This document shows, one piece after another, positions 14,335-60,176 of a DNA stretch of 64,000 nucleotides. Each line of letters opens with the position of its first letter. Position 1 is the first letter of the stretch. The stretch lies in NCBI GenBank assembly GCA_002441305.1, contig DJVT01000009.1, forward strand, positions 345,210-409,209, written 5' to 3'. Both the position numbers and the translations under genes were made by a program. The notes below the pieces were generated by a model. That model saw only the letters and a program-made list of their open reading frames with translations. It made no database searches and was not told the origin of the DNA. Origin of the DNA: Candidatus Omnitrophica bacterium UBA6249 (lineage in GTDB: Bacteria; Omnitrophota; Gorgyraeia; Gygaellales; Profunditerraquicolaceae).

Positions 14335-15625
14335 TGCCTTTACCCACTCCTATATATGAGAACCCCAACTTCCGCAACGGACGCGGGTCGTATATATTCC
14401 TGGCGTCGACCAAAAGCGGCCTGCGGAGCATCTTCTTTAATTTTACAAAATCCAGCTCTTTGAACTCATTCCACTCCGTGGCGACAATCAGGCAATCCGC
14501 CCCTTTGGAGGCATGGTACAGATCTTTGCAGAAAACGGCGTTTTGCAGGAGGTCCTTTGCCCTGGACATTGCCTTGGGGTCATAGACCCTTACCCTGGCG
14601 CCGTCCTGCAAAAGGGAATTGACCAAGTCCACGCTCGGGGCGTTCCTTAAATCGTCCGTATCGGGTTTAAAAGCCAGCCCCAGGACGGCTATAGTTTTAT
14701 CCTTTACGATCCATAATTCATCCTTGATTTTCTGCAGTACGAACTTTTTCTGCTCCTCGTTCGTATTCCTTACCGCCTTCAAAATCTGGAAGTCATAGCC
14801 TATCTTCTCGGCTATGCTGATAAAAGCCTCCAGGTCTTTGGGAAAACAGGAACCCCCGTAGCCTATCCCCGCGCGCAGGAAATGCCTGCCTATGCGGCTG
14901 TCCAGCCCCATCCCCTGGGCGACCTCTTCCACGTCCGCGCCGACTTTATCGCAGATTCTGGATATGGCGTTGATAAAAGAAATCTTTGTCGCCAGGAAGG
15001 CATTGGAGGCGTGCTTGATCAACTCGGCGGATTTTATATTGGTAAACAGGATCGGGCGGTTAAGCGGCTGGTAAAGGCTGGACATGATCCTCCTGGCCTT
15101 GGAGCTCTCCACCCCCAGGATGATGCGGTCGGGGCGGGTAAAGTCGTTTATCGCCGACCCCTCCCTGAGGAACTCCGGGTTTGAAACCACATCGAATTTA
15201 TGCCCTTTTTTCACGTAAGTAGCGATGGTCTTCTTTACCCAGGCGCAGGTCTCCACCGGCACGGTGGACTTCTCCACGATCAGCCGGTAGCCGTCCATAT
15301 TCTGCGCTATGCTGCGGGCTACATTTTCTATGCCTGTCAGGTCGGCCTCGCCGTTTTCAAGGGGAGGGGTCCCTACGGCGATAAAAATAACCTCGCTGCC
15401 CCTGACGGCAGACCTGATATTCGAGGTGAATTTCAGCCTTTTGTTTTCCCGGTTTTTTCTTACCAGCTCCTCCAGGCCCGGTTCGTAGATAGGAACCGCC
15501 CCTTTATTCAAAAGAGAGACTTTTTTTGAATCGCTGTCCGCGCAAATAACATTATTCCCCAGCTCGGCAAAGCAAGTTCCGGTAACCAGGCCGACGTATC
15601 CCGCCCCTATGATAGAAATGTTCAT
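14327..15625 (-). CDS. ugd: UDP-glucose 6-dehydrogenase
   Basis: 432 aa with MNISIIGAGYVGLVTG, GYGGSCFPKDL and GLAFKPDTDD. Confidence 0.9.
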   Translation of the reverse strand: MNISIIGAGYVGLVTGTCFAELGNNVICADSDSKKVSLLNKGAVPIYEPGLEELVRKNRENKRLKFTSNIRSAVRGSEVIFIAVGTPPLENGEADLTGIENVARSIAQNMDGYRLIVEKSTVPVETCAWVKKTIATYVKKGHKFDVVSNPEFLREGSAINDFTRPDRIILGVESSKARRIMSSLYQPLNRPILFTNIKSAELIKHASNAFLATKISFINAISRICDKVGADVEEVAQGMGLDSRIGRHFLRAGIGYGGSCFPKDLEAFISIAEKIGYDFQILKAVRNTNEEQKKFVLQKIKDELWIVKDKTIAVLGLAFKPDTDDLRNAPSVDLVNSLLQDGARVRVYDPKAMSRAKDLLQNAVFCKDLYHASKGADCLIVATEWNEFKELDFVKLKKMLRRPLLVDARNIYDPRPLRKLGFSYIGVGKGNG

Positions 15626-35162: not shown

Positions 35163-36349
35163 TACCGGCCCCTCAATCTATTGGAAATCTCTCTCTGTAA
35201 ATCAAGAATGCGTTTATGCCTGTCTTCCTTTTCTTCCTGGGTAAGGGAATCGGCCAGTTTAGAAGACTGCGTATTCGGCCTGGGGGAATATTTGAATATA
35301 TATGAAGCGTTAAACCCGACGTTCTTGAGCAAGGCACAGGTCTCCTGGAAATCCCCCTCTGTTTCTGTGGGGAAACCTACGATAATATCCGTAGTCAATG
35401 TACCCCCTGTAACGATTCTACGATAAGAGTCGGTTAAAGCCAAGTACTCTTTTACGGAGTACCCGCGGTTCATAAGCTTGAGTATCCTGTCCGAACCGGA
35501 TTGCACCGGAAGATGCAGGGATTTCTCCAGCTTCTCCAGGTCCCTGATGGCGCGGAAAAATTCTTCATTGGCGTCTTTAGGGTGGGAGGTGAAAAAATTA
35601 AAACTCTCCAGCCCTTCCAGCGCGTTTACCTCTTCAAGAAGCCCCCTGAAACCGGAATCCCCCTGGCAATAAGCGTTTACATTCTGCCCCAGGAGGGTAA
35701 TCCTGGATATACCCGAACCCAATGCCCGGAGGATCTCCTCTATAACGCTGGACTGCGCGCGGTGGCGCAATGGCCCGCGCACATACGGAACAATACAATA
35801 CGAACAAAAATTTGAACAGCCCTCGGAAATAACCACGTAAGCATGACTCTTGTCCGCGCGGAAAGAAGTATGATAGACCTCATCCGGCCTCTCCTTGGCC
35901 GCAGTCTCCCAGACCTTCCGCTGGAATAACCCCTCATCCTGGCTCTGTCCTAAAGCAAGAAGCCGGTCAAGAATCGAGGGTATTTTGCCGATATCCTGCG
36001 GCCCCACCACAAAAGAAATCGCCGGGTCGCGCTGGAACGCCTTGTCTTGATAATTCTGCGCCATGCACCCGGCCAACCCGATAATCTTACTGCCTTTATA
36101 ACTCCCGATCAGGCTCCAGACACGGTCCTCGGCATGCTTGCGTACGGAGCAAGTATTAAAGATCACGACATCGGCGTCTTGATCGGAATCACAGACCCGG
36201 TAACCGGCACCCTGGAGAAGCCCGCAGATAATCTCGGAATCCCGGACATTCATCTGGCATCCGAAGGTACGCAAAAGCACACGTAGCTTCTTCGGGCTTT
36301 TGCCTCCGGAATCGCCTGTATTGTCGTCTTTTCGTTCGTTTTCAACCAT
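35162..36349 (-). CDS. miaB: tRNA-i6A37 methylthiotransferase MiaB. The 5' end (36278-36349) is supplied by the integrated element.
   Basis: 395 aa with the UPF0004 domain LRTFGCQMN, the radical-SAM CSNFCSYC motif and a TRAM C-terminus. The first 24 codons lie to the element side of the 20-bp att core and overlap the integrase 3' end in another frame. Confidence 0.85.
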   Translation of the reverse strand: MVENERKDDNTGDSGGKSPKKLRVLLRTFGCQMNVRDSEIICGLLQGAGYRVCDSDQDADVVIFNTCSVRKHAEDRVWSLIGSYKGSKIIGLAGCMAQNYQDKAFQRDPAISFVVGPQDIGKIPSILDRLLALGQSQDEGLFQRKVWETAAKERPDEVYHTSFRADKSHAYVVISEGCSNFCSYCIVPYVRGPLRHRAQSSVIEEILRALGSGISRITLLGQNVNAYCQGDSGFRGLLEEVNALEGLESFNFFTSHPKDANEEFFRAIRDLEKLEKSLHLPVQSGSDRILKLMNRGYSVKEYLALTDSYRRIVTGGTLTTDIIVGFPTETEGDFQETCALLKNVGFNASYIFKYSPRPNTQSSKLADSLTQEEKEDRHKRILDLQREISNRLRGR

Positions 36350-37935
36350 TTCATCCCCTCTTCATAGCAAGTCTTCCAAGGCTCATTCAACTCAAACTTC
36401 ACGATTTCCTGATTCTGGATAGTAATCGACTTAAAGACAATCCGCATGAACGTCTTTATAAGGTAGTCCAATTGGTGATTGTCGCTTTCGGGCGTACTGC
36501 GCAACCTTAAAAGGAAATCCTGCGTCGCTTTCACCAAATTGACGGAATTGCGCTTGTCCAGAATCTTAAGATGAATGGCCTTGATATCCTGCTTTAGTTT
36601 TTTCTCCTCATTACTTAAAAGCTCGGCTCTGTCCTTATAAAGCCCCATATTTATTTTGTCTTCTGAAAATAATTCGTATATAGCCCTTTGCTTCTCCACG
36701 TTCTTTTTAAGAAGCGCTTCCTTCTCCTCCAACTGCTCCATATATACCCGCTCCGGCTCAGAAGCGTTAAGCCGAATCATGTCGCCTAATTCTTCCAGCA
36801 CGTGAAGATTTTTTCTAATAACTTCAACGATATCCCAGACCTGCTTATTGATAGCATCAGCAGTCACGGATTTATTGTTGCACTTAATATACCGAATCCC
36901 TCTAGACGAACATCTATACCACGGACGCCTCATTTTGGTGCGGTGATTAACGATATGCGTCATCCCGCGATAATTACCGCCGCATTCATTGCATTTTAAT
37001 ATACCGGAAAGATGATAAACATTATTCCTGAATCTAACTATGCCATTAGTGCGGTTTCGCTTGAGAAGCGTGGAAGCCTCGTCAAACTCCCTTTGCGAAA
37101 TAATCGGCTCGTGCGTATTCGGGACCTCGATGATCTTGGAAGGATCATTCTTGATATAGCAATATCCCTTTCCCTCGCCATTTTTAGTCTTGATCTTTGT
37201 ATCGTAACGCCGCTTATTCCAGACCAGCATTCCCAAATACACTTTATTTTTAAGGATATCCGAGATGAATTTAGTATAAAACTTCCCGCCCTGCCGCGAA
37301 GGGATACCAAGCATGTAATAATGCCCGGCAATCTGCGAAGTGCTCTTGCCATTTATATACATCGAGAAAATTTCTTTGACGATTTTCGCTTCTTCAGGGT
37401 GGACTTCCAGTTTCTTGGCTTCCTTATTATAACGATAGCCATACGGCGCGTAACGCGCTCCCTGCCAATGCCCCCGCTTAACACCTACAACCATACCCGG
37501 AAAAACGCGCTCAACTAAACGATTACGCTCAAATTCCGCGCAACTGCCAAGCATTTGAATCGCCATTTTGCCCGCGCTCGATGTAGTATCAAACGGCTCA
37601 GTCGCTGATTTATAGCCAACACCCAAAGAATCAATCTCCTCAAGCAATCCTAACAGATCCTTGAGCCGACGACTTAAGCGATCTTGTTTATACACCAAGA
37701 CCAAATCAAACTGCTTATTGCGGGCATCGAAGAGAAGCCTCTGTAATGCCGGTCTATCCATATTGCCGCCGGAATAGCCGTCATCCATATAAACATCCCG
37801 GCCCGACATACTGCAAAAAACATCCCAGCCGAAGTTCTTCGCATATTGCAAAAGATACGTTCTCTGCACCTCCAGCGAAAATCCTTCGCGAGCTTGATCC
37901 TCTGTGCTAACTCTTGTGTATAACGCTACCCTCAT
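36250..37935 (-). CDS. Large serine recombinase (integrase 1)
   Basis: 561 aa with the resolvase catalytic domain ALYTRVSTEDQ, a recombinase domain, the zinc ribbon CNECGGNY...CSSRGIRYIKC and a coiled coil. Its last codons cross the att core. Confidence 0.9.
   Translation of the reverse strand: MRVALYTRVSTEDQAREGFSLEVQRTYLLQYAKNFGWDVFCSMSGRDVYMDDGYSGGNMDRPALQRLLFDARNKQFDLVLVYKQDRLSRRLKDLLGLLEEIDSLGVGYKSATEPFDTTSSAGKMAIQMLGSCAEFERNRLVERVFPGMVVGVKRGHWQGARYAPYGYRYNKEAKKLEVHPEEAKIVKEIFSMYINGKSTSQIAGHYYMLGIPSRQGGKFYTKFISDILKNKVYLGMLVWNKRRYDTKIKTKNGEGKGYCYIKNDPSKIIEVPNTHEPIISQREFDEASTLLKRNRTNGIVRFRNNVYHLSGILKCNECGGNYRGMTHIVNHRTKMRRPWYRCSSRGIRYIKCNNKSVTADAINKQVWDIVEVIRKNLHVLEELGDMIRLNASEPERVYMEQLEEKEALLKKNVEKQRAIYELFSEDKINMGLYKDRAELLSNEEKKLKQDIKAIHLKILDKRNSVNLVKATQDFLLRLRSTPESDNHQLDYLIKTFMRIVFKSITIQNQEIVKFELNEPWKTCYEEGMKWLKTNEKTTIQAIPEAKARRSYVCFCVPSDAR
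36258..36277. repeat. att core copy 1 (CATCCGAAGGTACGCAAAAG), the junction between miaB and element 1
   Basis: Identical 20-mer to 54295-54314. It lies inside miaB codons LLRTFGC and inside the last codons of integrase 1. Confidence 0.8.
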
Positions 37936-44634: not shown

Positions 44635-45768
44635 TCACCTTTTTTCTTTTGATGCCGAAGAATCTTTTAATGCCCGCTCAATTTCTTTAATTGTCGGCAA
44701 ACTTGATTTCAATTCCTTAGGTAATGCCCGTGTAATTTGATATTCAGACACCCCGATGGCTTTGGTTACGCCTTTCAAAGCATATTCGGCAATAATCTGA
44801 TTCTTATCCTGACACAGGATAAGTCCTATCGTTGGCCTATCTTGTTCATGACAAAGTTGGGCGTCTACCACATTACAATAAAAATTCATTTTTCCCGCGT
44901 ATTCTGGTTTAAATGGCCCCCGCTTGAGATCTACGACAATGAAGCACCGCAAACGCAAGTGGTAAAATAAAAGATCCAGATAAAATTCTTTCGCGCCTAT
45001 GTTCAAGAGATACTGTCGGCCTACAAATGCAAAGCCCTGCCCTAACTCAAGGAGGAATTTCTCAACGTGTGCGAGAAGGCCCAACTCAAGTTCTCGCTCA
45101 TGAAAAGGTTCCGATAAAGTAAGAAAGTCAAAGATATACGGGTCCTTTAAACTTTGCTCTGCAAGATCCGATTGAGCTGGCGGCAATGTCCGCGAGAAGT
45201 TATGAATCACTTTTCCAGAACTTCGATGAGCTGCTGATTTAATCATTGCGCTCAATCTATCGCGACTCCAGCCCTGTTCTATCGTCTGCTGCATATACCA
45301 CAATCTATCATCAAGATCACTTACTTTCTCCATGAGAAGCACATTATGAAACCATGGCAATTTTGCAGCAACCTGCTGCAAAATTAAAGAATGCTTCTGA
45401 CGAGCTTTATTTTTTGCAGCACCCTGCTGCATAATTAACGGCTTCCCATATTCCCGGGCAAAGCGAATCATATACCCAATATTTCTCTCCGAAAAACCCT
45501 TTACCTCTGGCATTTCATTCCGAATATCCCTGGCTAATTTAGGAATAATTGCCGCGCCCCAACCAGCTCTTGCTTGACGTTCAATAATGGCCCGTCCGAT
45601 ATCCCAATAAAGGACAACCATTTCATTATTGACAGCGAACGTGGCTTTAACTTGTGCCGACCGAATACGCTCTTTCACCGCTTTTAAAAAAACAGGATAG
45701 TCGGAAGGCAACCCTGATAACTTTTTAACAGATAGTGAATTACTTGATGGCGACATCTTTTTTGTCAT
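44635..45768 (-). CDS. DUF1016 / YhcG family PD-(D/E)XK nuclease-domain protein
   Basis: 377 aa with the typical YhcG N-terminus (..RIRSAQVKATFAVNNEMVVLYWDIGRAI...). The C-terminal nuclease core reads YLDLLFYHLRLRCFIVVDLK. Confidence 0.8.
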   Translation of the reverse strand: MTKKMSPSSNSLSVKKLSGLPSDYPVFLKAVKERIRSAQVKATFAVNNEMVVLYWDIGRAIIERQARAGWGAAIIPKLARDIRNEMPEVKGFSERNIGYMIRFAREYGKPLIMQQGAAKNKARQKHSLILQQVAAKLPWFHNVLLMEKVSDLDDRLWYMQQTIEQGWSRDRLSAMIKSAAHRSSGKVIHNFSRTLPPAQSDLAEQSLKDPYIFDFLTLSEPFHERELELGLLAHVEKFLLELGQGFAFVGRQYLLNIGAKEFYLDLLFYHLRLRCFIVVDLKRGPFKPEYAGKMNFYCNVVDAQLCHEQDRPTIGLILCQDKNQIIAEYALKGVTKAIGVSEYQITRALPKELKSSLPTIKEIERALKDSSASKEKR

Positions 45769-52714: not shown

Positions 52715-54175
52715 TTATTCTTTTAATCGTGCCAAAGCACATTGCAAAACAGAAAAATCTTCCGCATTTGCCAGCACCAATAAAACATCGCCGCCCTCGA
52801 TCACGGTTGACCCGGACGGAATAACAAATTTGTCGTTGCGCGAAACAAGCATGATCAGGCATTTCACCGGAACATTCAATTCCTTGATCATCTTGCCAAT
52901 AGCCTCTGAATTATACGGCACGATAACATCCGTCAGTTCCGCGTCAATGCCTTCAACTTTCTCAAATTCTATAGGGTATGCTTTCTTGTCAGGCAAAGGC
53001 ACATCCAACTTTAGCAGTTTTGAAACCAGAGGAATTGACGTGCCCTGAATAAAAACAGAAGCAATGACAATGAAAAACACGATATTAAAAATTGTCTCGG
53101 CCTGAGGAATGCCTGCCGCGAGCGGAAATGTGGCCAAGATGATCGGAACCGAGCCCCTCAATCCTACCCACGAAAGCATGATCTTTTTCGGCACGGCGAA
53201 TTTAAACGGAAGTAAGCAGAGAAAAACGCTCAAAGGCCGGGCAATAAACATGAGGACAATCGTAACCAGCAACCCTGTTCCGATAAGCGGAACCAAGTGA
53301 GAAGGATAAACGAGCAAACCTAAAGTCACGAACATGGCAATTTGGCTGATCCAAGCCAAACCGTCATGAAATTTCATAATGGATTTCTTATTAGGAAATT
53401 CCGTCTGCGCTAGACCGAGCCCAGCAAGATAAACCGCAAGGATCCCGTTTCCCTTTAAAAGAACTGCAATAACGTAAGTAAACAAGATCAATGAAATTGT
53501 TATAATTGGATAAAGGCCTTCATAATCTAATTTAAGCCGCTTGATAAAGAAAACGATGGCCTTCGCCATTAAATAACCGACAAGCGCCCCCATCCCCATA
53601 TCCAGAACGAATCTCGGAATCAGCGAAACGAGCCCTGATCCTTTCACGGTCAAAAGGCTCAAAAACCCCATTGTCAGAAAAATAGCCATCGGATCATTAC
53701 TGCCGGACTCGAATTCGAGCAACGGTTTCAATGGCTTCTTCAAACTTATGCGTCTTGATCTTAGAATAGCGAATACGGCGGCGGCGTCTGTAGATGAAAC
53801 GATAGATCCAAGCAACACACCGTCTAATAGAGAAAATTTGAGGACATAAACAGCAAACAACCCCGTAATAATTGCCGTAACCAATACTCCAAGAGTCGAA
53901 AGCACGATCCCCGGGAGAATAATTGGTCTTGTGTCTTTCCAGTTAGTATCAAGCCCGCCTGAAAAGATAATAAATATAAGTGCCAAAATACCGATCTGCT
54001 TCGCCAGTTGAGCATTATCAAAATAGATCTTGCCGATCCCTTCCGATCCGGCAAGCATCCCAACCGCCAAAAATAACAACAACACGGGAACCGCGAACTT
54101 GTCCGATATCTTGCTCGAAACAACGCTCACGAACATTAAAACCGAAGCCCATAATAAAATAGTTTCAAATGCCAT
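52715..54175 (-). CDS. nhaP2: K+/H+ antiporter NhaP2/CvrA type (CPA1) with C-terminal TrkA-C (RCK_C) domain
   Basis: 486 aa with about 12 TM helices, an N-terminus typical of NhaP2 and a C-terminal RCK_C-like segment (VIPSGSTVIEGGDVLLVLA). Confidence 0.8.
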   Translation of the reverse strand: MAFETILLWASVLMFVSVVSSKISDKFAVPVLLLFLAVGMLAGSEGIGKIYFDNAQLAKQIGILALIFIIFSGGLDTNWKDTRPIILPGIVLSTLGVLVTAIITGLFAVYVLKFSLLDGVLLGSIVSSTDAAAVFAILRSRRISLKKPLKPLLEFESGSNDPMAIFLTMGFLSLLTVKGSGLVSLIPRFVLDMGMGALVGYLMAKAIVFFIKRLKLDYEGLYPIITISLILFTYVIAVLLKGNGILAVYLAGLGLAQTEFPNKKSIMKFHDGLAWISQIAMFVTLGLLVYPSHLVPLIGTGLLVTIVLMFIARPLSVFLCLLPFKFAVPKKIMLSWVGLRGSVPIILATFPLAAGIPQAETIFNIVFFIVIASVFIQGTSIPLVSKLLKLDVPLPDKKAYPIEFEKVEGIDAELTDVIVPYNSEAIGKMIKELNVPVKCLIMLVSRNDKFVIPSGSTVIEGGDVLLVLANAEDFSVLQCALARLKE

Positions 54176-54229
54176 AAGTGAATTCTGTTTTTACCTTAAC
54201 CAATTCAATTTTTTTGCATAACTTCTTAA

Positions 54230-56110
54230 TCAATCTGCACCTATCAACGCCTCCGCCAAATCCGCCATGCTGTGTCTATAAGGTAGACAACGGCCATCCG
54301 AAGGTACGCAAAAGTATACGCTTTCCCTTCGGGGAACCTTCGCCTTCGGCTCGGTTTCCTCGGTGCTTTTCTTCGCCTTTTTTGGCGTCATTTCTCTCTT
54401 TGTTTGACATTTTACTCCTTCTTTCAAACTGTCATCCTGAGGAAGGCCGCAGGCCGACCGAAGGATCTCATCCTTAGCCAGATTCTTCGCCTTCGGCTCA
54501 GAATGACGGACTTTCAGTGCCTCGTCATAGCACATCTTCCACGGCTGATTAATATCAACCTTAACAATTTCCTGATTTTGAATATATATCCCTTTAAATA
54601 TAATCCTCATAAACGTCTTTATAAGGTAATCCATCTGCTGGGTGTTGGGATTACTCCTCAATTTCAATAGAAAATCCTGCGTGGCTTTCACCAGATTAAC
54701 CGCGTTACGTTTTTCAAGGATCTTTAACTGGATCGACTTTATATCCTGTCTGAGCTTCTTCTCCTCATTCCTGAGAAGTTCAGCCTTGTCTTTATAAATA
54801 TCAATATTGATCTTATCCTCTGAGAAAACCTCATAAAGCGCCTTCTGTTTTTCAAGGTTCTTGGCCAACGCCTTTTCCGTATCTTCCAACTGCTCGATAT
54901 AACACTGTTCAGGCTCAGTTGCGCTTAACTTGATCATGTCCCCCAGTTCTTCGATAACATGCAAATTTCTACTTATCGTATCAATAATATCCCAAACCTG
55001 TTTGTTGATCCCATCGGCCGTAACTGATTTATTCTTGCACTTAACATACGATACACCGACAGATGAACAGCAATACCACGGCCTACGTTCCTTCGTCCTG
55101 TGGTTCTTCGTTAAAGTCAACCCTCGGTAATTTCGCCCGCATTCATGGCATTTTAAAACACCGGACAGGTGATAAACATTGTTGCGAAATCTCACGACTT
55201 TATTTGTGCGGTTTCTATCAAGCAGTTTCTGCGCCTTATCAAACACCTCTTGAGTGATGATCGCTTCATGGCAATCCTTCACCTCAATAATCTTAGACGG
55301 ATCATTATTCACATACTTGTATCCCTTACCCTCGCCATTATGCGTTTTCTCTTTTTTCTCATACCGCTTTTTATTCCACACCAGCATGCCCAGATACGTC
55401 TTATTCTTGAGAATCGATGAAATAAATTTGGTATAAAACTTCCCGCCCTGACGTGATTTGATGCCTAAATTATAATAATGCCCGGCGATCTGAGACGTAC
55501 TTTTACCGCTAATATACATATCAAAAATCTCTTTAACGATCTTCGCTTCTTCGTCGTGGACTTCCAGCTTCTTGATCTCTTTATTGTAACGGTAACCATA
55601 AGGAGCATACCGTGCGCCTTGCCAGTGCCCACGCTTAACTCCCACAACCATGCCCGGGAATACGCGCTCAACCAGACGATTGCGTTCAAACTCCGCGCAA
55701 CTGCCCAACATCTGTATTGCCATCTTACCCGCGCTTGATGTGGTATCAAACGGCTCAGTCGCTGATTTGTAACCGATCCCTAACGACTCAAACTCCTCAA
55801 GTAACGCCAAAAGATCCTTTAACTTCCTGCTAAGCCTGTCCTGCTTATAAACCATTACCAAATCAAACTGCTTATTCTTCGCGTCAAACAAAAGCCTCTG
55901 CAAAGCTGGCCTGTCCATATTTCCACCGGAATAACCGTCATCCATATAAACATCTTTACCGGACATCGTGCAAACAACATCCCAGCCAAAGTTCTTGGCA
56001 TACTGCAAAAGGTAATCCCGCTGAACTTCCAGCGAAAACCCCTCCCGCGCCTGATCCTCTGTGCTGACTCTTGTGTATAAAGCTACTTTCATGTTCTCCT
56101 GCTCTGTCAT
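54230..56110 (-). CDS. Large serine recombinase (integrase 2) carrying an in-frame repeat insertion near the C-terminus
   Basis: 626 aa, collinear with integrase 1 (ALYTRVSTEDQAREGFSLEVQR..., zinc ribbon, coiled coil). The probable start is MKVALY at 56092. The tail reads across the att core into the distal arm of element 1. Confidence 0.9.
   Translation of the reverse strand: MTEQENMKVALYTRVSTEDQAREGFSLEVQRDYLLQYAKNFGWDVVCTMSGKDVYMDDGYSGGNMDRPALQRLLFDAKNKQFDLVMVYKQDRLSRKLKDLLALLEEFESLGIGYKSATEPFDTTSSAGKMAIQMLGSCAEFERNRLVERVFPGMVVGVKRGHWQGARYAPYGYRYNKEIKKLEVHDEEAKIVKEIFDMYISGKSTSQIAGHYYNLGIKSRQGGKFYTKFISSILKNKTYLGMLVWNKKRYEKKEKTHNGEGKGYKYVNNDPSKIIEVKDCHEAIITQEVFDKAQKLLDRNRTNKVVRFRNNVYHLSGVLKCHECGRNYRGLTLTKNHRTKERRPWYCCSSVGVSYVKCKNKSVTADGINKQVWDIIDTISRNLHVIEELGDMIKLSATEPEQCYIEQLEDTEKALAKNLEKQKALYEVFSEDKINIDIYKDKAELLRNEEKKLRQDIKSIQLKILEKRNAVNLVKATQDFLLKLRSNPNTQQMDYLIKTFMRIIFKGIYIQNQEIVKVDINQPWKMCYDEALKVRHSEPKAKNLAKDEILRSACGLPQDDSLKEGVKCQTKREMTPKKAKKSTEETEPKAKVPRRESVYFCVPSDGRCLPYRHSMADLAEALIGAD
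54295..54314. repeat. att core copy 2 (CATCCGAAGGTACGCAAAAG), the junction between element 1 and element 2
   Basis: Identical to 36258-36277. It lies in the 3' end of integrase 2. Confidence 0.8.
54431..54507. repeat. Inverted pair of the GTCATYCTGA...GAAGRATC repeat family (miniature element) inside the integrase 2 ORF
   Basis: GTCATCCTGAGGAAGGCCGCAGGCCGACCGAAGGATC (54431-54467) faces GATTCTTCGCCTTCGGCTCAGAATGAC (54481-54507). The pair is translated as RHSEPKAKNLAKDEILRSACGLPQDDS. Confidence 0.8.
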
Positions 56111-56138
56111 TCTGAGGCCCCGCAGGGGCCGAAGAATC
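56106..56138. repeat. Solo copy of the same repeat family between xis2 and int2
   Basis: GTCATTCTGAGGCCCCGCAGGGGCCGAAGAATC. It is absent from the homologous xis1/int1 junction, where the two genes overlap. Confidence 0.8.
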
Positions 56139-56314
56139 TAATCTTTCAAAGTCCCCCGCCATTCTTTAATCTTCTTAATACACTCATCCGTAAACACCGG
56201 CCAATCCCTGTAATCGCGCTTCGGTTTGATCCAGCCTTTACGCACCCAATGGATCATAGTCTGGCGATGCACCCCTAAAATCTTTGCCGTCTCTGTCATC
56301 GTGTATGTCTTCAT
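56138..56314 (-). CDS. Excisionase-type HTH protein, RDF candidate (element 2 copy)
   Basis: MKTYTMTETAKILGVHRQTMIHWVRKGW...; 51 of 58 residues are identical to the element 1 copy. Confidence 0.65.
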   Translation of the reverse strand: MKTYTMTETAKILGVHRQTMIHWVRKGWIKPKRDYRDWPVFTDECIKKIKEWRGTLKD

Positions 56315-56323
56315 AAGCAAGTT

Positions 56324-56360
56324 GTCATCCTGACCCTGAACGAAGTGAAGGGGAAGGATC
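56324..56360. repeat. Repeat family copy on the 3' side of the GIY-YIG gene
   Basis: GTCATCCTGACCCTGAACGAAGTGAAGGGGAAGGATC. It ends at the GIY-YIG stop codon. Confidence 0.8.
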
Positions 56361-56653
56361 TAAATAATACTTTCATATAAATCCTTCCACTCCGGGTTAT
56401 TCTTTTCAATTAAAGCGATCTTCTTTTTCCTAAGCCATCCTTTAATCTGCTTCTCTCGTTCTATAGCTGTCATCATGTCATCCGAAACTTCAAAATGAAC
56501 CAATTTATGCACATTGTATTTTTTGGTAAATCCATCGACCATTTTATTCTTATGCTCATAAACCCGCTTAACCAGATCACTCGTTACACCTGTATAAAGA
56601 ACCTTATTATGCACATTCGTTAAAATGTAAACGTATCCTTGTTTTTCTCTCAT
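56360..56653 (-). CDS. Small GIY-YIG nuclease-domain protein (UPF0213/COG2827 type)
   Basis: 97 aa with GYVYILTNVHNKVLYTGVTSDLVKRVYEHK (GIY...YTG), then ..E...IK.W.R.KK. Confidence 0.85.
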   Translation of the reverse strand: MREKQGYVYILTNVHNKVLYTGVTSDLVKRVYEHKNKMVDGFTKKYNVHKLVHFEVSDDMMTAIEREKQIKGWLRKKKIALIEKNNPEWKDLYESII

Positions 56654-56658
56654 CTTCA

Positions 56659-56693
56659 GATCCTTCGGTCGGCTTCGCCTCCCTCAGGATGAC
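56659..56693. repeat. Repeat family copy on the 5' side of the GIY-YIG gene, inverted relative to 56324-56360
   Basis: GATCCTTCGGTCGGCTTCGCCTCCCTCAGGATGAC, which is the reverse complement of GTCATCCTGAGGGAGGCGAAGCCGACCGAAGGATC. Confidence 0.8.
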
Positions 56694-56733
56694 GTGCCGT
56701 TCATTGAAGGCCAGTATACCTCATTATACAACC

Positions 56734-56928
56734 TTATACAAGAGGATTCTTCTCCGTATCATAGCAAACCAAAAACATTTTCGATAAGACCTCTATCCCA
56801 TCATAAAACGATTTACGAGCCTCCTGTATTTCCGCGATAGACATACCCCGGCTTTTGAGTTTTTCCTCTAAAGCCTCCCATCCCCGCGAATTCTCCGTAA
56901 TTGTTCTATTCTTCTGCTTCTCCATCAT
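56734..56928 (-). CDS. Conserved small element protein (element 2 copy)
   Basis: NSRGWEALEEKLKSRGMSIAEIQEARKSFYDGIEVLSKMF aligns with 38162-38365. I chose the start by homology (MMEKQKN). Confidence 0.55.
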   Translation of the reverse strand: MMEKQKNRTITENSRGWEALEEKLKSRGMSIAEIQEARKSFYDGIEVLSKMFLVCYDTEKNPLV

Positions 56929-57532
56929 GACCTTTACGTACACCGGCAAATTCGTCGATAATATCGGCTATCGCCTCATAAAGAAGCGTTTCAATTTCCC
57001 GAGGTTCTCTCATCGCTAAACGAGGCGCCATTATTGTCGGCAATGCTAAAAATGACCGCTTAACTACCATGATCCTCTCAATTCTTCCCTTCTCAACTTC
57101 ATCTCTTGGCAAGACCTCGCCTAAAGCCTTTTTTAAATCAATCTCTGACAAAAGAGCCTTGTTCTTCCGATATTCAATATCCCATTTTTCCTTCTCGGTA
57201 TCCCGCACATCCCGATAACTCTGCTGAGTCATTCGCCATGCCTTAATTTCCAAAAGATCGTAATGACCTTCGGGCGTCACAGGCATTCCTTCTTTCGCCC
57301 AGTAGTAAACAGTCCTGACAGACACATTCAAAGCCTTGGCGACCTTCTCTTTGGTATCCACAATACCGTTAGGTAAATCAGATTCCGCCTCAAGCCTTTC
57401 AAGTTCTTTAAGCTCTGCTGGTGTTAGCGGCGTACCGCTATGAAGCTTCTCATACAGATATAAGTGCCGCTTTTTCCGTGCTATCTCCACGATATTGGGT
57501 TTCTTGTTTTCCGCTGTTTTATTCTCTTCCAT
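56906..57532 (-). CDS. HTH protein resembling a phage Nu1-type small terminase subunit (tentative)
   Basis: 208 aa. KEKVAKALNVSVRTVYYWAKEGMPV...YDLLEIKAW, followed by a coiled coil, parallels the lambda Nu1 layout (HTH, ..GMPV.., ..W.., helical C-terminus) as I recall it. Confidence 0.4.
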   Translation of the reverse strand: MEENKTAENKKPNIVEIARKKRHLYLYEKLHSGTPLTPAELKELERLEAESDLPNGIVDTKEKVAKALNVSVRTVYYWAKEGMPVTPEGHYDLLEIKAWRMTQQSYRDVRDTEKEKWDIEYRKNKALLSEIDLKKALGEVLPRDEVEKGRIERIMVVKRSFLALPTIMAPRLAMREPREIETLLYEAIADIIDEFAGVRKGHDGEAEE

Positions 57533-57687
57533 ACTGAAATCCTCCGTTTCAAAATTTGCAGGTTATTAACCCCTGATTCAGACCTTAAAATCTTTAAATA
57601 CTCCTTTTTCTATAGGGAAAATACACTTCTCCCTTGCTTCGCCGCTTCAATCTTATTGAACATGCAACCTAAAAATTGAAGTTAATA

Positions 57688-57790
57688 TCACTGACAGACC
57701 GCGCCTCGCCCGACCCTCGGCAAACCCCCGTGGTAAGGACCCATTGTTTAAAAGATGCCGGAGTTACATGTAGTCGCAAGACTACACTCC
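57688..57790. repeat. Conserved GC-rich motif copy 3 plus adjacent hairpin
   Basis: TCACTGACAGACCGCGCCTCGCCCGACCCTCGG..GTAAGGACCC (57688-57742). A hairpin GGAGT..GTAGTC-GCAA-GACTAC-ACTCC follows at 57760-57790. Confidence 0.8.
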
Positions 57791-57899
57791 TGCCCTCAGG
57801 CGACGGAAAACGCGCGTCCACCCAGAATCCCGGTTTCCATTTCTTCTTTTTCTTTTTTCTATACCAGTTGTAGTAATACATTTCTTATTCTCCCTTTCC

Positions 57900-58035
57900 G
57901 TCATGCGCCGAATGACAGAAATGACAACTTTTCCCACACTTATTTATTTTTTCTTTCCTGCTTTCATCCCCTTCCACTCCTCCATCCCTAAACACAATTA
58001 ATGAATATTCCTGTCATTCTTGTCATAGTTGTCAT
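57900..58035. repeat. Inverted iteron clusters flanking an AT-rich spacer at the primase 2 stop (origin candidate)
   Basis: ATGACA occurs at 57912 and 57921. The inverted word TGTCAT occurs at 58012, 58021 and 58030. All recur at a 9-bp period and are separated by about 85 bp of T-rich DNA. Confidence 0.5.
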
Positions 58036-60176
58036 TAATAAGGCCGTCCGGAAATATCCACTTCACCCTCTCTGCGAAGCCGAATGCCTTTCCACGTCCT
58101 CGCGGAACTACACCTTCCTTTATTAACCGAATCATATTGCCGGATTAATTCACGGCCGAAAGTGATCTTGCTAAGCGGCCGATACCCGCTATCCAGACAC
58201 CAGTTGTTATATGCCTGATACAGATCATCCTTGCTGATATCATCATGCGCATCGAGAACACACATCTCCTCGACAAAGATGATCACGTTATTGTTCTCCT
58301 TGCGATACTCATCTTTTACGTTAAGCATTGAGGCGCTTTCCTCAAAATATCCACGATCCCTTAACCTCTTCAGTCCGTTAAGCGCCCACAAGAAAATGCC
58401 ATCAAGCTCACTTGAAGCGATCTTGTATTTAAGTTTATGATCACGTTCTTCTTTATTGAATTGACGGTTAAAAGGCAGGATTAAAAGACGGCGGTAATAC
58501 CCTTCGCTCTTATCACCCACGCGCGGCATATTGTTTGTCGAAAATAGAAGCTTGCAGTAAGGCTTAAACTGAAAAGGCTGTCCATACTTCTCATCAGCCG
58601 AAATCGTATCGCCGGTAACGATGGCCTTGAACATATTGTCATAGACATTCGTCTTAGCATTGGTCTCAAGGCTGATATTGACCAGCTTGTCCCGAAGCCG
58701 GGCGATATAGTGCGAATCATTAAACTTCTCAAGCGCGATCGATGAACAATTTTCTTTGCCGATAAGCTCCTCAAGCACATACAAAACAACACTCTTGCCG
58801 TTCGCTCCCTCGCCAAATAAAAAGAGTGCCTTCTCATAATCATTTTCCCGCGTCAGGCAATACCCGAAAAATTCCTGCAGTAACTCAATACGCTCCGCGT
58901 CATTTTCAAATATCTGATCCAGACTCTTTTTCCATACCGGACAGTCGGCATCATCCTGATACGTCACATTAAGCTGATTAATGGAATACACATCCGCTGA
59001 ATGCGGAACAAGCCGCATATTATCAATGTCATAAAGCCCGTTTTTGACATTCAGAAAAGAAACACCATTAATAATGTCCGGCTTAATAAATGTCTCGGTC
59101 TTTAACGCCACAAGCACATTGCGAAGCCTGCTTGCCGAAAACATCGCCCCGCAAACATCCTTGATCCATTTCTGCACCTCTTCGATAAAAAGCGACCGGT
59201 AACAACCGCTTTGGTATTCATAATATGTATCCGCGAAATTAATCAGCCTGTGCTTCTCAAGAATGGCGTCCGCCACTTCATTGGAGTTTATCTTCTTAGG
59301 TGTATATTCTGATGAATTGCCCGCGCTGTAAACATCACGGCAACCGGCAATAGCTTTAGCGATAGTATCCGCACCGTACGTCCTGCCGTCACTGAAATGC
59401 GCTTCATCCCATTTCGGCCGCATAAGACCCGATGAACGAAACACAAGATCCATAAGCCCGGCATCTTTACCTGTCCAGAACGCCAGCTTATTGCAAAGCG
59501 CCAGATCCGCTTCACTTTGCGAAGGATAATCCGCATGCCAATTCCCTTCATACAGCCGGAAAAACGCGTCCTTATCTTTACTTCTCTTGACCCTGTTCAA
59601 AATCGTCTTAACGCTCTTGCCCTGTTTCTCTGTTCCCTGAACCTCCGCGAAAACCCGATTCAATTCATCCTTACGAGTCTCAATGGAGCTCTTGCCCGCA
59701 ATAATCCGTCCGGTGATCGTAAAAAACCGGTTTTTCGAATACATCTCAACATTACAAGAGCTGAACTTGCGTTCACGCGCGATCTCACCCTTACAGATAA
59801 TATGTGCGCCCTTGCCGCCGGGAGAATATTCCGTATAACTGTTTAATGTGGAAATAATCGTTCGGGCGAGTGATGACATACCGTCGTCAGTCATGCAACT
59901 GTCTATATCAATCCCGACATACGGCGAAGTGATGGCAAACCCTATCGCGTCCAAATTAAGCGCCTCAACTCGCTCCAATAACTCATCAAACGAACACCAT
60001 GTGCTTGAATCATTACACTTGGCAGGCCCGCCGGTTTTGATATTTATAGGAACTTTCTTCGGCTTTTTCCTGGGTTGAGGCAGAAATTTAAATCCAACCC
60101 AGATAGAAAGGTCTTTTAACTCTTGAGGGATATTATCAATATCCCACCTTTTCTCTTTTCTTCTCTCTTCGTTCAT
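58035..60176 (-). CDS. Prim-Pol (AEP) primase fused to a P4/D5-type SF3 helicase
   Basis: The N-terminal half is homologous to primase 1 (VGIDIDSC, SPGGKGAHII, YPSQSEADLALCNKLAFWTGKDAG...). The C-terminal half is of the P4-family type, with FLFGEGANGKS. I place the start at MNEERRKEKRW (60176), 4 nt after the upstream stop. Confidence 0.8.
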   Translation of the reverse strand: MNEERRKEKRWDIDNIPQELKDLSIWVGFKFLPQPRKKPKKVPINIKTGGPAKCNDSSTWCSFDELLERVEALNLDAIGFAITSPYVGIDIDSCMTDDGMSSLARTIISTLNSYTEYSPGGKGAHIICKGEIARERKFSSCNVEMYSKNRFFTITGRIIAGKSSIETRKDELNRVFAEVQGTEKQGKSVKTILNRVKRSKDKDAFFRLYEGNWHADYPSQSEADLALCNKLAFWTGKDAGLMDLVFRSSGLMRPKWDEAHFSDGRTYGADTIAKAIAGCRDVYSAGNSSEYTPKKINSNEVADAILEKHRLINFADTYYEYQSGCYRSLFIEEVQKWIKDVCGAMFSASRLRNVLVALKTETFIKPDIINGVSFLNVKNGLYDIDNMRLVPHSADVYSINQLNVTYQDDADCPVWKKSLDQIFENDAERIELLQEFFGYCLTRENDYEKALFLFGEGANGKSVVLYVLEELIGKENCSSIALEKFNDSHYIARLRDKLVNISLETNAKTNVYDNMFKAIVTGDTISADEKYGQPFQFKPYCKLLFSTNNMPRVGDKSEGYYRRLLILPFNRQFNKEERDHKLKYKIASSELDGIFLWALNGLKRLRDRGYFEESASMLNVKDEYRKENNNVIIFVEEMCVLDAHDDISKDDLYQAYNNWCLDSGYRPLSKITFGRELIRQYDSVNKGRCSSARTWKGIRLRREGEVDISGRPY

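What the first reader, a model, noticed from the sequence alone, without database searches (positions are those of the whole stretch)
54431..56138. Cargo-less copies of the same repeat are tolerated inside the integrase ORF and split the xis-int overlap
The inverted pair at 54431-54507 has the same two-armed layout as the GIY-YIG cassette, but only 13 bp separate the arms. It sits in-frame inside integrase 2, where it is translated as RHSEPKAKNLAKDEILRSACGLPQDDS. It accounts for much of the roughly 45-residue extension that integrase 2 has over integrase 1 just before the att-core-encoded tail. A solo copy (56106-56138) lies exactly where xis1 and int1 overlap by 29 nt in element 1. In element 2 it gives Xis a shorter C-terminus and gives Int a new upstream ATG (MTEQEN). 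I counted five arms of this family within 2.3 kb of element 2, and I noticed none elsewhere in the window.
Basis: seen in the sequence. Interest (0 to 1): 0.6.

Follow-up and report, generated by a model that had tools for sequence, protein, structure and literature searches.

The report
Ssn-nuclease hairpin repeats colonising an integrase

Summary
Five arms of one repeat (GTCATYCTGAG-[mini-hairpin]-CGAAGRATC) lie within 54431-56693 and nowhere else in the 64 kb (5 hits against 0.18 expected). Two arms bracket a 97-aa single-domain GIY-YIG gene. This is the architecture published in 2025 as SRM-ssn-SRM (Chenal et al., PMC11893778). Ssn nucleases bind such hairpins only as ssDNA and cut just 5' of them. 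The window's arms keep the key determinants (GTC, palindrome, following C) but fall outside the published search pattern.

The insert in integrase 2 is derived: 107 of 116 orthologues lack it. The nine that carry an insert all carry it at this one spot, as different repeat types and junctions. One relative keeps only a GTCAT remnant.

The spot is not an arbitrary place in the ORF. It is where the integrase's ordered body ends. It also lies directly upstream of the RBS and ATG of an overlapping, element-encoded replacement 5' end of the target gene (miaB-like). The solo arm sits at the xis|int junction, where relatives carry a whole ssn cassette. So all copies sit at gene boundaries. MTEQEN is probably not the real start.

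How the repeats spread remains unknown. Interest is moderate to low.

The parts
54431..54468 (+). Arm A1, an SRM-like hairpin of ATCCT type (GTCATCCTGAGGAAGGCCGCAGGCCGACCGAAGGATCT). It is the right arm of the pair in integrase orientation, and its GTCAT strand is antisense to int.
54469..54479 (.). 11-nt spacer between the two arms of the pair (CATCCTTAGCC on the + strand).
   Evidence: Spacers of 8-14 nt occur in homologous pairs elsewhere.
54480..54507 (-). Arm A2, an SRM-like hairpin of ATTCT type (GTCATTCTGAGCCGAAGGCGAAGAATCT). It is the left arm of the pair. The identical arm occurs at the same site in L013, L097 and L122.
54276..54410 (-). Leader ORF overlapping the 3' end of int2 in another frame (MSNKERND...KRILLRTFGW...). 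It is the homologue of the element-encoded replacement N-terminus of the miaB-like target gene. Its SD (GGAG, 54415-54418) and ATG (54408-54410) lie 13-23 nt downstream of the pair.
54295..54312 (-). att core shared with element 1 (TTTGCGTACCTTCGGATG). It is read through by the int2 ORF.
54230..56092 (-). int2, a large serine recombinase of 620 aa counted from the probable start M7 (MKVALYTR). The ORF is open up to 56110 (MTEQEN). The pair encodes residues ~527-553 (620-aa numbering; derived by hand from the alignment).
56096..56100 (-). AGGAG Shine-Dalgarno for the int2 M7 start. It lies in the 13 nt that accompany the solo arm.
56106..56139 (+). Arm A3, a solo SRM-like hairpin of ATTCT type (GTCATTCTGAGGCCCCGCAGGGGCCGAAGAATCT) at the xis|int junction. 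It supplies the AG of the xis2 stop codon and the ATG of the MTEQEN extension.
56138..56314 (-). xis2, an HTH_17/MerR-like excisionase candidate (58 aa from ATG; 60 aa from the upstream TTG at 56320).
56324..56361 (+). Arm A4, an SRM-like hairpin on the 3' side of ssn. It overlaps the ssn stop codon and lies 9 nt upstream of the xis2 ATG.
56360..56653 (-). ssn-like gene encoding a 97-aa single-domain GIY-YIG nuclease.
56658..56693 (-). Arm A5, an SRM-like hairpin on the 5' side of ssn. The cassette 56324-56693 is inserted between the conserved promoter-like TTGTATA...TATAAT and xis.

Best explanation
The five arms are Ssn-related hairpin motifs. These are short DNA hairpins that, as single strands, are the binding sites of the single-domain GIY-YIG ssDNA endonuclease encoded between two of them. 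By analogy with the characterised SsnA proteins, the nuclease would cut a few nucleotides 5' of GTCAT, only on the GTCAT strand and only in ssDNA.

The nuclease gene and its repeats are a selfish or semi-domesticated passenger that entered element 2. The repeats settled at its three gene boundaries: promoter|xis (the cassette), xis|int (the solo arm), and integrase body|miaB' leader (a BIME-like heterotypic pair).

The pair survives because three conditions hold. It is 81 nt net and open in the integrase frame. It falls where the folded integrase ends and a poorly conserved, disordered tail begins. A copy of the SD+ATG of the overlapping leader is kept downstream of it.

I infer that the insert is neutral filler for recombination. 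I also infer that the solo arm merely replaces translational coupling of xis and int by an independent SD.

What is shown: the identity and geometry of the repeats, the derived state of the insert, its recurrence at the same sites in relatives, and the remnant and extra arms at the same site that suggest loss and accretion. What is inferred: cleavage specificity, neutrality, and that Ssn itself spreads the repeats.
For: The architecture and its determinants match the published system. Chenal et al. 2025 describe ~94-aa GIY-YIG genes flanked on both sides by hairpin repeats. They found that the GTC upstream of the palindrome is needed for cutting and the C after it for binding. All five arms read GTC-ATYCT...AGRAT-C.

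The protein is a 97-aa GIY-YIG-only protein. It is 59-61% identical to homologues in L011 and L012, which are flanked by canonical NTS-type repeats GTCATTCCCGCGAAAGCGGGAATC.

In 80 homologous loci from many phyla, outward-facing arms flank the gene on both sides in 50 and on one side in 23. Thirty-six loci have the window's CTGA arm class.

The insert is derived. 107 of 116 orthologues are empty, the filled ones are confined to the crown clade, and parsimony needs at least 6 state changes.

The sites recur. SRMs occur at int nt ~1576-1590 in 8 loci (of roughly 59 that cover the site, my hand count), with at least 6 different junctions. They occur 33-113 nt upstream of the int ATG in 6 loci, four of them as whole ssn cassettes.

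There is evidence of loss and accretion. L098 keeps only CCGTCATGGG at the site, and L122 and L097 carry extra partial arms.

On tolerance, pLDDT drops from 84 (residues 521-530) to below 50 after residue 547. All 10 retrieved copies of element 2 carry the cassette in the same context, and the four whose int 3' end I aligned (window, L001, L003, L006) carry the identical pair, one of them (L003) integrated at the miaB-like site.

In-frame pairs also occur in linkers of a primase-polymerase (L015) and a DprA (L016).
Against: The published SRM search pattern gives no hit on any arm, so membership rests on the key determinants and on context.

No direct comparison with N. meningitidis SsnA or with cd10448 was possible.

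Cleavage, and any role of Ssn in spreading the repeats, is untested. A GIY-YIG nuclease alone cannot join DNA.

The recurrence at one site could owe much to recombination between co-resident related elements rather than to independent insertions.

The match between the repeat type at the integrase site and the resident ssn type rests on only two independent lineages.

Neutrality of the insert for integrase function is inferred from a structure prediction and from sequence variability, not measured.
Confidence: 0.72

Rival explanations
1. The hairpins work at the RNA level. Placed at each gene boundary of the ssn-xis-int-leader transcript, they would act like REP elements: 3' stabilisers, processing sites, or insulators that uncouple translation of neighbouring genes. 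The element would keep them for that reason.
For: All copies lie 9-23 nt upstream of a start codon or SD on the transcribed strand. As RNA the solo arm folds at about -17 kcal/mol and the pair at -39 kcal/mol. The solo arm replaces a 4-nt or 29-nt xis/int overlap with a hairpin plus an independent SD.
Against: RNA fold z-scores are weak (-0.3 to -2.0). There are no terminator-like T tracts and no Rfam match. Most orthologous elements do without any hairpin. Characterised Ssn proteins do not bind RNA (PMC11893778). The conserved unpaired GTC and C argue for a protein/ssDNA site rather than a plain stem.
Confidence: 0.12
2. The pair is what remains of a second ssn cassette that lost its gene by internal deletion in place, and the solo arm is what remains of a cassette that once sat between xis and int.
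For: The pair has the same outward-facing geometry as the cassette. Four relatives carry a complete cassette exactly at the xis|int junction, with the downstream arm where A3 lies.
Against: For the pair: the arms are heterotypic (ATTCT + ATCCT) with an 8-14-nt spacer, and this same unit recurs in unrelated genes, at the same integrase site in distant relatives, and in tandem arrays on a viral contig. That behaviour fits a unit in its own right. No ssn-derived sequence is left in the 11-nt spacer. For the solo arm this rival remains plausible.
Confidence: 0.1
3. The repeats and nuclease are used by the element itself. They might process its own single-stranded replication or transfer intermediates, or destroy incoming ssDNA of competing elements such as element 1's relatives that target the same miaB-like site.
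For: In Neisseria, SsnA restricts incoming ssDNA that carries its motif (PMC11893778). Element 2 has a primase-helicase. Two related elements compete for one att core in this window, and element 2 occupies the miaB-like site in another sample.
Against: The motifs are on the element that carries the nuclease, not on the rival: element 1 has none. Most related elements have neither. Nothing here bears on ssDNA intermediates.
Confidence: 0.06

Closest known systems
Ssn nucleases with their Ssn-related motifs (NTS/dRS3 of Neisseria; Chenal et al., Nat Commun 2025, PMC11893778)
   Same: Both have a single-domain GIY-YIG protein of ~95 aa. The gene is bracketed by inverted hairpin repeats that face outwards. 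A GTC precedes the palindrome and a C follows it. Extra solo copies and clusters occur nearby. The distribution spans many phyla.
   Different: The window's hairpin has a 5-bp outer stem, a GA/GA internal loop and a variable GC-rich inner hairpin, and it does not fit the published degenerate pattern. Copies form heterotypic pairs. Copies are read through in frame within genes, whereas NTS are reported as 2% intragenic in N. meningitidis. The host is an integrative element of Omnitrophota. No biochemistry is available here.
REP/BIME elements with RAYT (IS200/IS605-like Y1) transposases
   Same: Both are short hairpins recognised as ssDNA. They form pairs in inverted orientation with short linkers (BIME-like), flank the gene of the protein that recognises them, and sit at gene boundaries within operons.
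   Different: The associated protein is a GIY-YIG nuclease, not an HUH/Y1 transposase, so no strand-transfer chemistry is evident. REPs are by definition extragenic.
Rickettsia palindromic elements (Ogata et al. 2000, 2002, as reviewed in PMC10969869)
   Same: Both are palindromic repeats inserted in frame into protein-coding genes, translated, and tolerated at positions compatible with the fold.
   Different: RPEs are ~100-150 bp and have no known partner enzyme. The units here are 24-81 bp and travel with an ssn gene. Sequence relatedness was not tested.
Bacterial MITEs (Correia, ERIC, Nezha and others)
   Same: They are small, non-coding, bounded by inverted ends, sometimes intragenic with in-frame fusions, and present or absent between close relatives.
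   Different: There is no transposase-derived terminal repeat. The target-site duplication is not clear-cut: only an imperfect ~15-nt repeat of the target. The arms are themselves hairpins and also occur singly.

Membership tests
Ssn nuclease family (cd10448, SsnA-like) | Single-domain GIY-YIG protein of about 90-100 aa with no DNA-binding extension | tested here: met
   The protein is 97 aa. PF01541 covers residues 6-78 (E 1.6e-17) and there is no other domain.
Ssn nuclease family (cd10448, SsnA-like) | Assignment to cd10448, or significant similarity to N. meningitidis SsnA (NMB0047) | not testable with these tools
   No CDD is available and no Neisseria sequence is held. As a proxy, the protein is 59-61% identical to the L011/L012 proteins, which are flanked by canonical NTS-type repeats. 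It is 57-62% identical (best tblastn segment) to Nitrosospira (L059), Burkholderiales (L058, L086) and Rhodocyclaceae (L025) homologues, three of which (L058, L059, L086) have the same canonical repeats. PDB and NCBIfam gave nothing useful.
Ssn nuclease family (cd10448, SsnA-like) | Catalytic GIY/YIG tyrosines, arginine and glutamate conserved | tested here: met
   Y7, Y9, Y20, R30, H34 and E67 are invariant in alignment A4. The paper's inactivating mutations were Y6A, Y17A and E64A in the Nm protein.
Ssn nuclease family (cd10448, SsnA-like) | Gene flanked on both sides by hairpin repeats in inverted orientation | tested here: met
   A4 and A5 abut the stop and start codons of the gene. The same arrangement holds in 50 of 80 homologous loci.
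Ssn nuclease family (cd10448, SsnA-like) | Binds its motif only as ssDNA and cuts a few nt upstream; no activity on dsDNA or RNA | not testable with these tools
   This needs purified protein and oligonucleotides.
Ssn-related motif (SRM/NTS) repeats | Match to the published degenerate pattern HGTCWYN(0-2)YYVSBRHN(0-5)WNVSBRGN(0-2)RNCYNB | tested here: not met
   There are 0 matches in the whole window, the five arms included. The arms have a CTGAG...CGAAG internal-loop design that the pattern does not allow.
Ssn-related motif (SRM/NTS) repeats | Oriented hairpin with GTC just 5' of the palindrome and C just 3' of it | tested here: met
   All five arms read GTC-ATYCT...AGRAT-C, with compensatory C:G/T:A changes.
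Ssn-related motif (SRM/NTS) repeats | Many copies, clustered, in genomes that carry an ssn gene | tested here: inconclusive
   There are 5 copies in 2.3 kb next to ssn and none in the other 61.7 kb. The rest of the genome was not available.
MITE | Terminal inverted repeats with a target-site duplication, and presence/absence polymorphism | tested here: inconclusive
   Inverted arms and presence/absence between orthologues are met. The flanking repeat is only an imperfect ~15-nt duplication that also has a functional explanation, namely keeping the SD+ATG of the leader.
REP/BIME-RAYT | Association with an IS200/IS605-like Y1 transposase | tested here: not met
   The associated gene is GIY-YIG. 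I noticed no Y1 transposase-like gene in the ORF lists or the gene tables of the loci examined, but I ran no systematic domain search of the window.
Rickettsia palindromic elements | Palindromic repeat inserted in frame in coding genes and translated | tested here: met
   In-frame pairs occur in int2, the L015 primase-polymerase, the L016 DprA and L022 ORFs. Membership by sequence was not tested, and the size differs (77-81 bp against ~100-150 bp).

The most novel reading that the evidence does not exclude
The Ssn/SRM unit is a genuinely mobile element of a new mechanistic class, driven by a GIY-YIG ssDNA nuclease. Its hairpins, singly or as heterotypic pairs, would insert preferentially into purine-rich translation-initiation regions that resemble the 3' half of the hairpin stem (GAAGAAT at xis|int, GGGGAT at the leader start). 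Insertion would duplicate ~15 nt of target. The hairpins could excise leaving a GTCAT footprint (L098) and accrete further arms at occupied sites (L122, L097). On this reading the integrase site in this window and its relatives would be a natural series of insertion, turnover and excision alleles, from which the unknown transposition mechanism could be worked out.
Probability: 0.15. Interest if true: 0.7.

Novelty: new variant of a known kind. Interest (0 to 1): 0.35.

Why it matters
The Ssn/SRM pairing was described only in 2025. Its biology outside Neisseria, and the way the repeats multiply, are still open.

This locus and its relatives offer three things. First, they provide a hairpin class that the published search pattern misses, so censuses based on that pattern undercount. 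Second, they show that these repeats can be carried in frame inside real proteins in Omnitrophota, in the manner of Rickettsia palindromic elements. That matters for annotation, because RHSE...NL / ...LPQDD and RFRGND peptides are repeat-derived. Third, they form a compact set of empty, filled, swapped and remnant-bearing alleles at two fixed gene boundaries of a small integrative element. This is the kind of material needed to test whether and how Ssn spreads its own recognition sites.

For integrase biology the message is modest. The C-terminal tail of this large serine recombinase family, which runs across the att core, tolerates arbitrary filler.

Tried and rejected
- Rfam with permissive thresholds over 53800-58200 gave nothing relevant.
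- Searching the nuclease against PDB sequences and NCBIfam gave no informative hit.
- The published SRM degenerate pattern gave 0 hits, so it could not serve as a membership test.
- The terminator/promoter scan did not flag the arms as terminators.
- The first literature search (GIY-YIG + inverted repeats + miniature) returned only irrelevant papers.
- An IMG/VR scan with the inner junction of the pair (GAAGAATCT N8-14 AGATCCTTC) gave 127 matches. Of these, 112 lack the outer GTCAT/ATGAC arms and many fall in one recurring coding context, so only 15 are true pairs.
- I considered a clean target-site duplication. The flanking ~15-nt copies are too diverged (about 8-11 of 15 identical), and they have a functional explanation as well, so the point is left open.
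- I considered that the extra CGAAGAATCT at 44656 is a half-site remnant. It has no hairpin or GTCAT nearby, so it is chance.
- I considered that the repeat segment is ancestral in the integrase. The phylogenetic distribution rejects this.
- The match between repeat type at the integrase site and type of the resident ssn looked like evidence for spread in cis. It rests on two lineages in which the two sites are only 2 kb apart, so it carries little weight.
Full report
1. THE OBSERVATION

The 10-mer GTCATYCTGA occurs five times in the 64-kb window, all between 54431 and 56693. Shuffles predict 0.18 occurrences. Allowing one mismatch adds nine hits against about five expected, and none of these has a matching 3' half. 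A hairpin scan that does not use the consensus returns the same five, plus six consensus-less hits, about what I estimate for chance.

The arms are A1 54431-54468(+), A2 54480-54507(-), A3 56106-56139(+), A4 56324-56361(+) and A5 56658-56693(-). Their consensus is GTCATYCTGAG, then a variable GC-rich mini-hairpin, then (C)GAAGRATCT.

Each arm folds the same way. The outer stem is 5 bp, ATYCT/AGRAT, and a C:G pair in three arms is replaced by T:A in two. A 2-nt internal loop and an inner stem follow.

A4 and A5 abut the stop and start codons of a 97-aa ORF (56360-56653, minus strand) that is nothing but a GIY-YIG domain.

A1 and A2 lie inside the ORF of a large serine recombinase, int2 (Resolvase + Recombinase + Zn_ribbon_recom domains). 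They are read as RHSEPKAKNLAKDEILRSACGLPQDDS.

A3 lies between the excisionase-like xis2 and int2.

2. COMPARISON WITH ELEMENT 1

int1 (36250-37935) is 73% identical to int2. DNA alignments show three segments in element 2 that element 1 lacks:
- a net 81 nt at the pair;
- 44 nt at the xis/int junction, made of A3 plus AGAGCAGGAGAAC, which carries an AGGAG 5 nt before the ATG of MKVALYTR;
- the 370-nt cassette A5-gene-A4, inserted between a conserved promoter-like TTGTATA...TATAAT and xis.

3. WHAT THE REPEATS ARE

A literature search led to Chenal et al. 2025 (PMC11893778). They show that single-domain GIY-YIG proteins of ~94 aa (family cd10448, 'Ssn') are encoded between inverted hairpin repeats. 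These repeats are called NTS in Neisseria (CGTCATTCCCGCGMAVGCGGGAATCYRG, a subset of dRS3) and 'SRM' in general.

According to that paper, the protein binds the hairpin only as ssDNA and cuts a few nucleotides upstream. The three nucleotides before the palindrome matter for cutting, and the C after it matters most for binding.

The window's arms have exactly this frame: GTC, then a palindrome beginning AT, then C. Relatives of element 2 carry canonical NTS-type repeats (GTCATTCCCGCGAAAGCGGGAATC) around a protein that is 59-61% identical to the window's.

A scan of one genome per species with an alignment of these proteins returned 80 loci from many phyla. Outward-facing arms flank the gene on both sides in 50 and on one side in 23. 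Thirty-six loci have the window's 'CTGA' arm class.

Proteins with the same arm class are more alike than proteins with different classes (64.1% against 55.9% identity, permutation p < 0.0005). Phylogeny was not controlled in this test.

The published degenerate SRM pattern, however, matches none of the window's arms. The window's hairpin is therefore a variant outside the published search definition. I could not compare the protein with the Neisseria enzyme or with cd10448 directly.

4. IS THE INSERT IN THE INTEGRASE DERIVED?

The protein search with int2 returned 486 hits at E <= 1e-50; I aligned the 120 listed representatives with int1 and int2, and 116 of these could be scored for the insert. 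Of those, 107 lack any insert and read ...CYEEG[ML]KW[LQ]K....

The nine that are filled all carry the insert at the same spot. It appears either as pairs of the window's type (int2, P0121, P0144) or as solo or double NTS-type copies read as [ML]D[SPA]RFRG[NDH]D (P0122, P0123, P0130, P0133, P0141, P0151). No repeat-derived insert occurs anywhere else in the ~550 residues.

On a neighbour-joining tree of the pre-insert 520 residues, the filled sequences are confined to the crown clade and are interleaved with empty ones. Parsimony needs at least six state changes.

A metagenome scan gave 80 more orthologous loci. In a census of these and of the earlier loci, most have no such hairpin at all. 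The hairpins cluster at two places:
- Site A, int nt ~1576-1590: el2, L011, L012, L013, L014, L096, L097, L122.
- Site B, 33-113 nt before the int ATG: solo in el2 and L013, and a whole ssn cassette in L011, L012, L119 and L170.

A single further in-frame copy sits at another position in a distant integrase (L169). I did not follow it up.

At the DNA level, site A shows at least six different junctions within about 17 nt.
- L098 is 89% identical to int2 and has the same att tail. It has no hairpin but keeps CCGTCATGGG, which looks like a deletion footprint.
- L122 and L097 have extra partial arms.

The insert is therefore derived, recurrent and subject to turnover. How much of the scatter reflects independent insertion, and how much reflects recombination between related elements that share one att site, cannot be settled here.

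5. WHERE EXACTLY THE PAIR SITS

In element 1 the int ORF runs across the att core (TTTGCGTACCTTCGGATG, found twice in the window). It overlaps, in another frame, the first 33 codons of the miaB-like radical-SAM gene: MVENERK...LLRTFGCQMN. The element therefore supplies a replacement 5' end for the gene it interrupts.

The SD and ATG of that leader are the very sequence GAAGAGGGGATGAAATGG at which the inserts occur. In every filled allele, a second and diverged copy (for example GAAGGAGTAAAATG) follows the insert and starts the leader. Examples are MSEKERND... in L012 and MSNKERND... at 54410-54276 in the window.

AlphaFold, run with 77 aligned sequences, gives pLDDT 84 for residues 521-530, 56 for 531-540, and below 50 from residue 547 onwards. 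The pair thus lies precisely between the end of the folded integrase and the start of the overlapping leader.

The solo arm lies at xis|int and the cassette at promoter|xis. Each lies 9-23 nt before a start codon. All three are gene boundaries, which is where such repeats usually sit.

Several other empty relatives have a 4-nt TAATG/TAGTG overlap of xis and int, so the 29-nt overlap is peculiar to element 1.

The MTEQEN extension starts at the ATGAC of the arm. Most orthologues start at M[KR]VALYTR (only 15 of 122 have any N-terminal extension), and gene callers chose that start in most copies. The extension is therefore probably not used.

6. THE PAIR AS A UNIT

The pair is heterotypic: an ATTCT-type arm, 8-14 nt, then an ATCCT-type arm. 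The same composition occurs:
- at site A in L013, L097 and L122;
- in frame in the linker of a primase-polymerase (L015, 65% identical to the element-1 protein, which lacks the insert);
- between the two domains of a DprA (L016);
- in further ORFs of L022;
- at 15 matches on IMG/VR viral contigs, four of them tandem pairs on one contig.

This resembles BIMEs built from REPs more than a cassette that lost its gene.

7. MECHANISM AND RIVALS

The best-supported reading is a passenger Ssn/SRM system whose hairpins accumulate near the nuclease gene at gene boundaries. The integrase copy persists as neutral, in-frame filler.

An RNA-level role has little support. Fold z-scores are weak, there are no terminator features, there is no Rfam hit, and most relatives lack the hairpins.

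In-place loss of a second ssn gene is unlikely for the pair but possible for the solo arm.

A role in the element's own ssDNA processing or in competition between elements cannot be excluded. It has no support here, because the motifs are on the nuclease-bearing element, not on its rival.

How the repeats spread is unknown. The imperfect ~15-nt duplication around the inserts could be a target duplication. It could equally be the footprint of selection for keeping the leader's SD and ATG. The resemblance of both sites to the 3' half of a hairpin stem is recorded only as an idea.

8. VERDICT

The system belongs to a family described in 2025, with a hairpin variant and an in-frame, boundary-hugging habit that the paper does not describe. 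Novelty: new variant of a known kind. Interest: moderate to low (0.35).

Noticed in passing
window 36250-36349 and 54276-54410 (minus strand): The integrase ORF runs across the att core. In another frame it overlaps an element-encoded SD+ATG and about 30 codons that rebuild the N-terminus of the interrupted miaB-like radical-SAM gene (MVENERK...LLRTFGCQMN in element 1). The element therefore repairs the gene it integrates into.
   Followed up: partly
window 36258-36275 and 54295-54312; L003 5990-6451: The two related integrative elements share an identical 18-nt att core. Element 1 sits in the miaB-like gene and element 2 at a secondary site upstream of a Na+/H+ antiporter. In another metagenome (JGI 3300037067) an element 2 copy with the same repeat pair and int 3' end sits at the miaB-like site. 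A Ca. Velamenicoccus archaeovorus integrase (P0235, 42% identical) has the same CLPYRHSMADLAEALIGAD tail, so the secondary site seems conserved.
   Followed up: partly
L011 5413-5452 and 5887-5922; L012 5070-5093 and 5370-5395: Further hairpin repeats (ATTGC and NTS types) lie inside or at the end of the host miaB-like gene next to related elements. One ends 7 nt before the next gene (miaA-like).
   Followed up: no
L016 1652-2836: A DprA homologue (the protein that loads RecA on incoming ssDNA in transformation) carries an in-frame repeat pair between its DNA_processg_A and winged-helix domains. This is curious because SsnA limits transformation in Neisseria, but it is probably coincidence.
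   Followed up: partly
L226 8571-8951: An IMG/VR viral contig has four tandem heterotypic repeat pairs, three of them 87 nt apart (the fourth 175 nt on), forming a BIME-like array.
   Followed up: no
L169, about nt 1137 of the integrase match: A distant integrase (43% identical) has an NTS-type hairpin within its ORF at a different position (about residue 379), apparently read through.
   Followed up: no
L011 and L012 2267-3000; L119; L170: In four related elements the whole ssn cassette sits between xis and int, often with one or two extra arms. In the window it sits upstream of xis. The cassette position thus differs between close relatives while the arm next to the int start is kept.
   Followed up: partly
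window 15249-15269: GTCTCCACCGGCACGGTGGAC has a perfect 7-bp stem with a GCA loop, framed by GTC and C, inside a host ORF. It does not begin with AT like the repeat family and is within chance expectation for the scan.
   Followed up: no
one search hit table: Most near-identical homologues of the nuclease sit on very short contigs of 0.5-3 kb. This is what one expects if the cassette and its repeats break metagenome assemblies, that is, if they are multi-copy in those populations.
   Followed up: no
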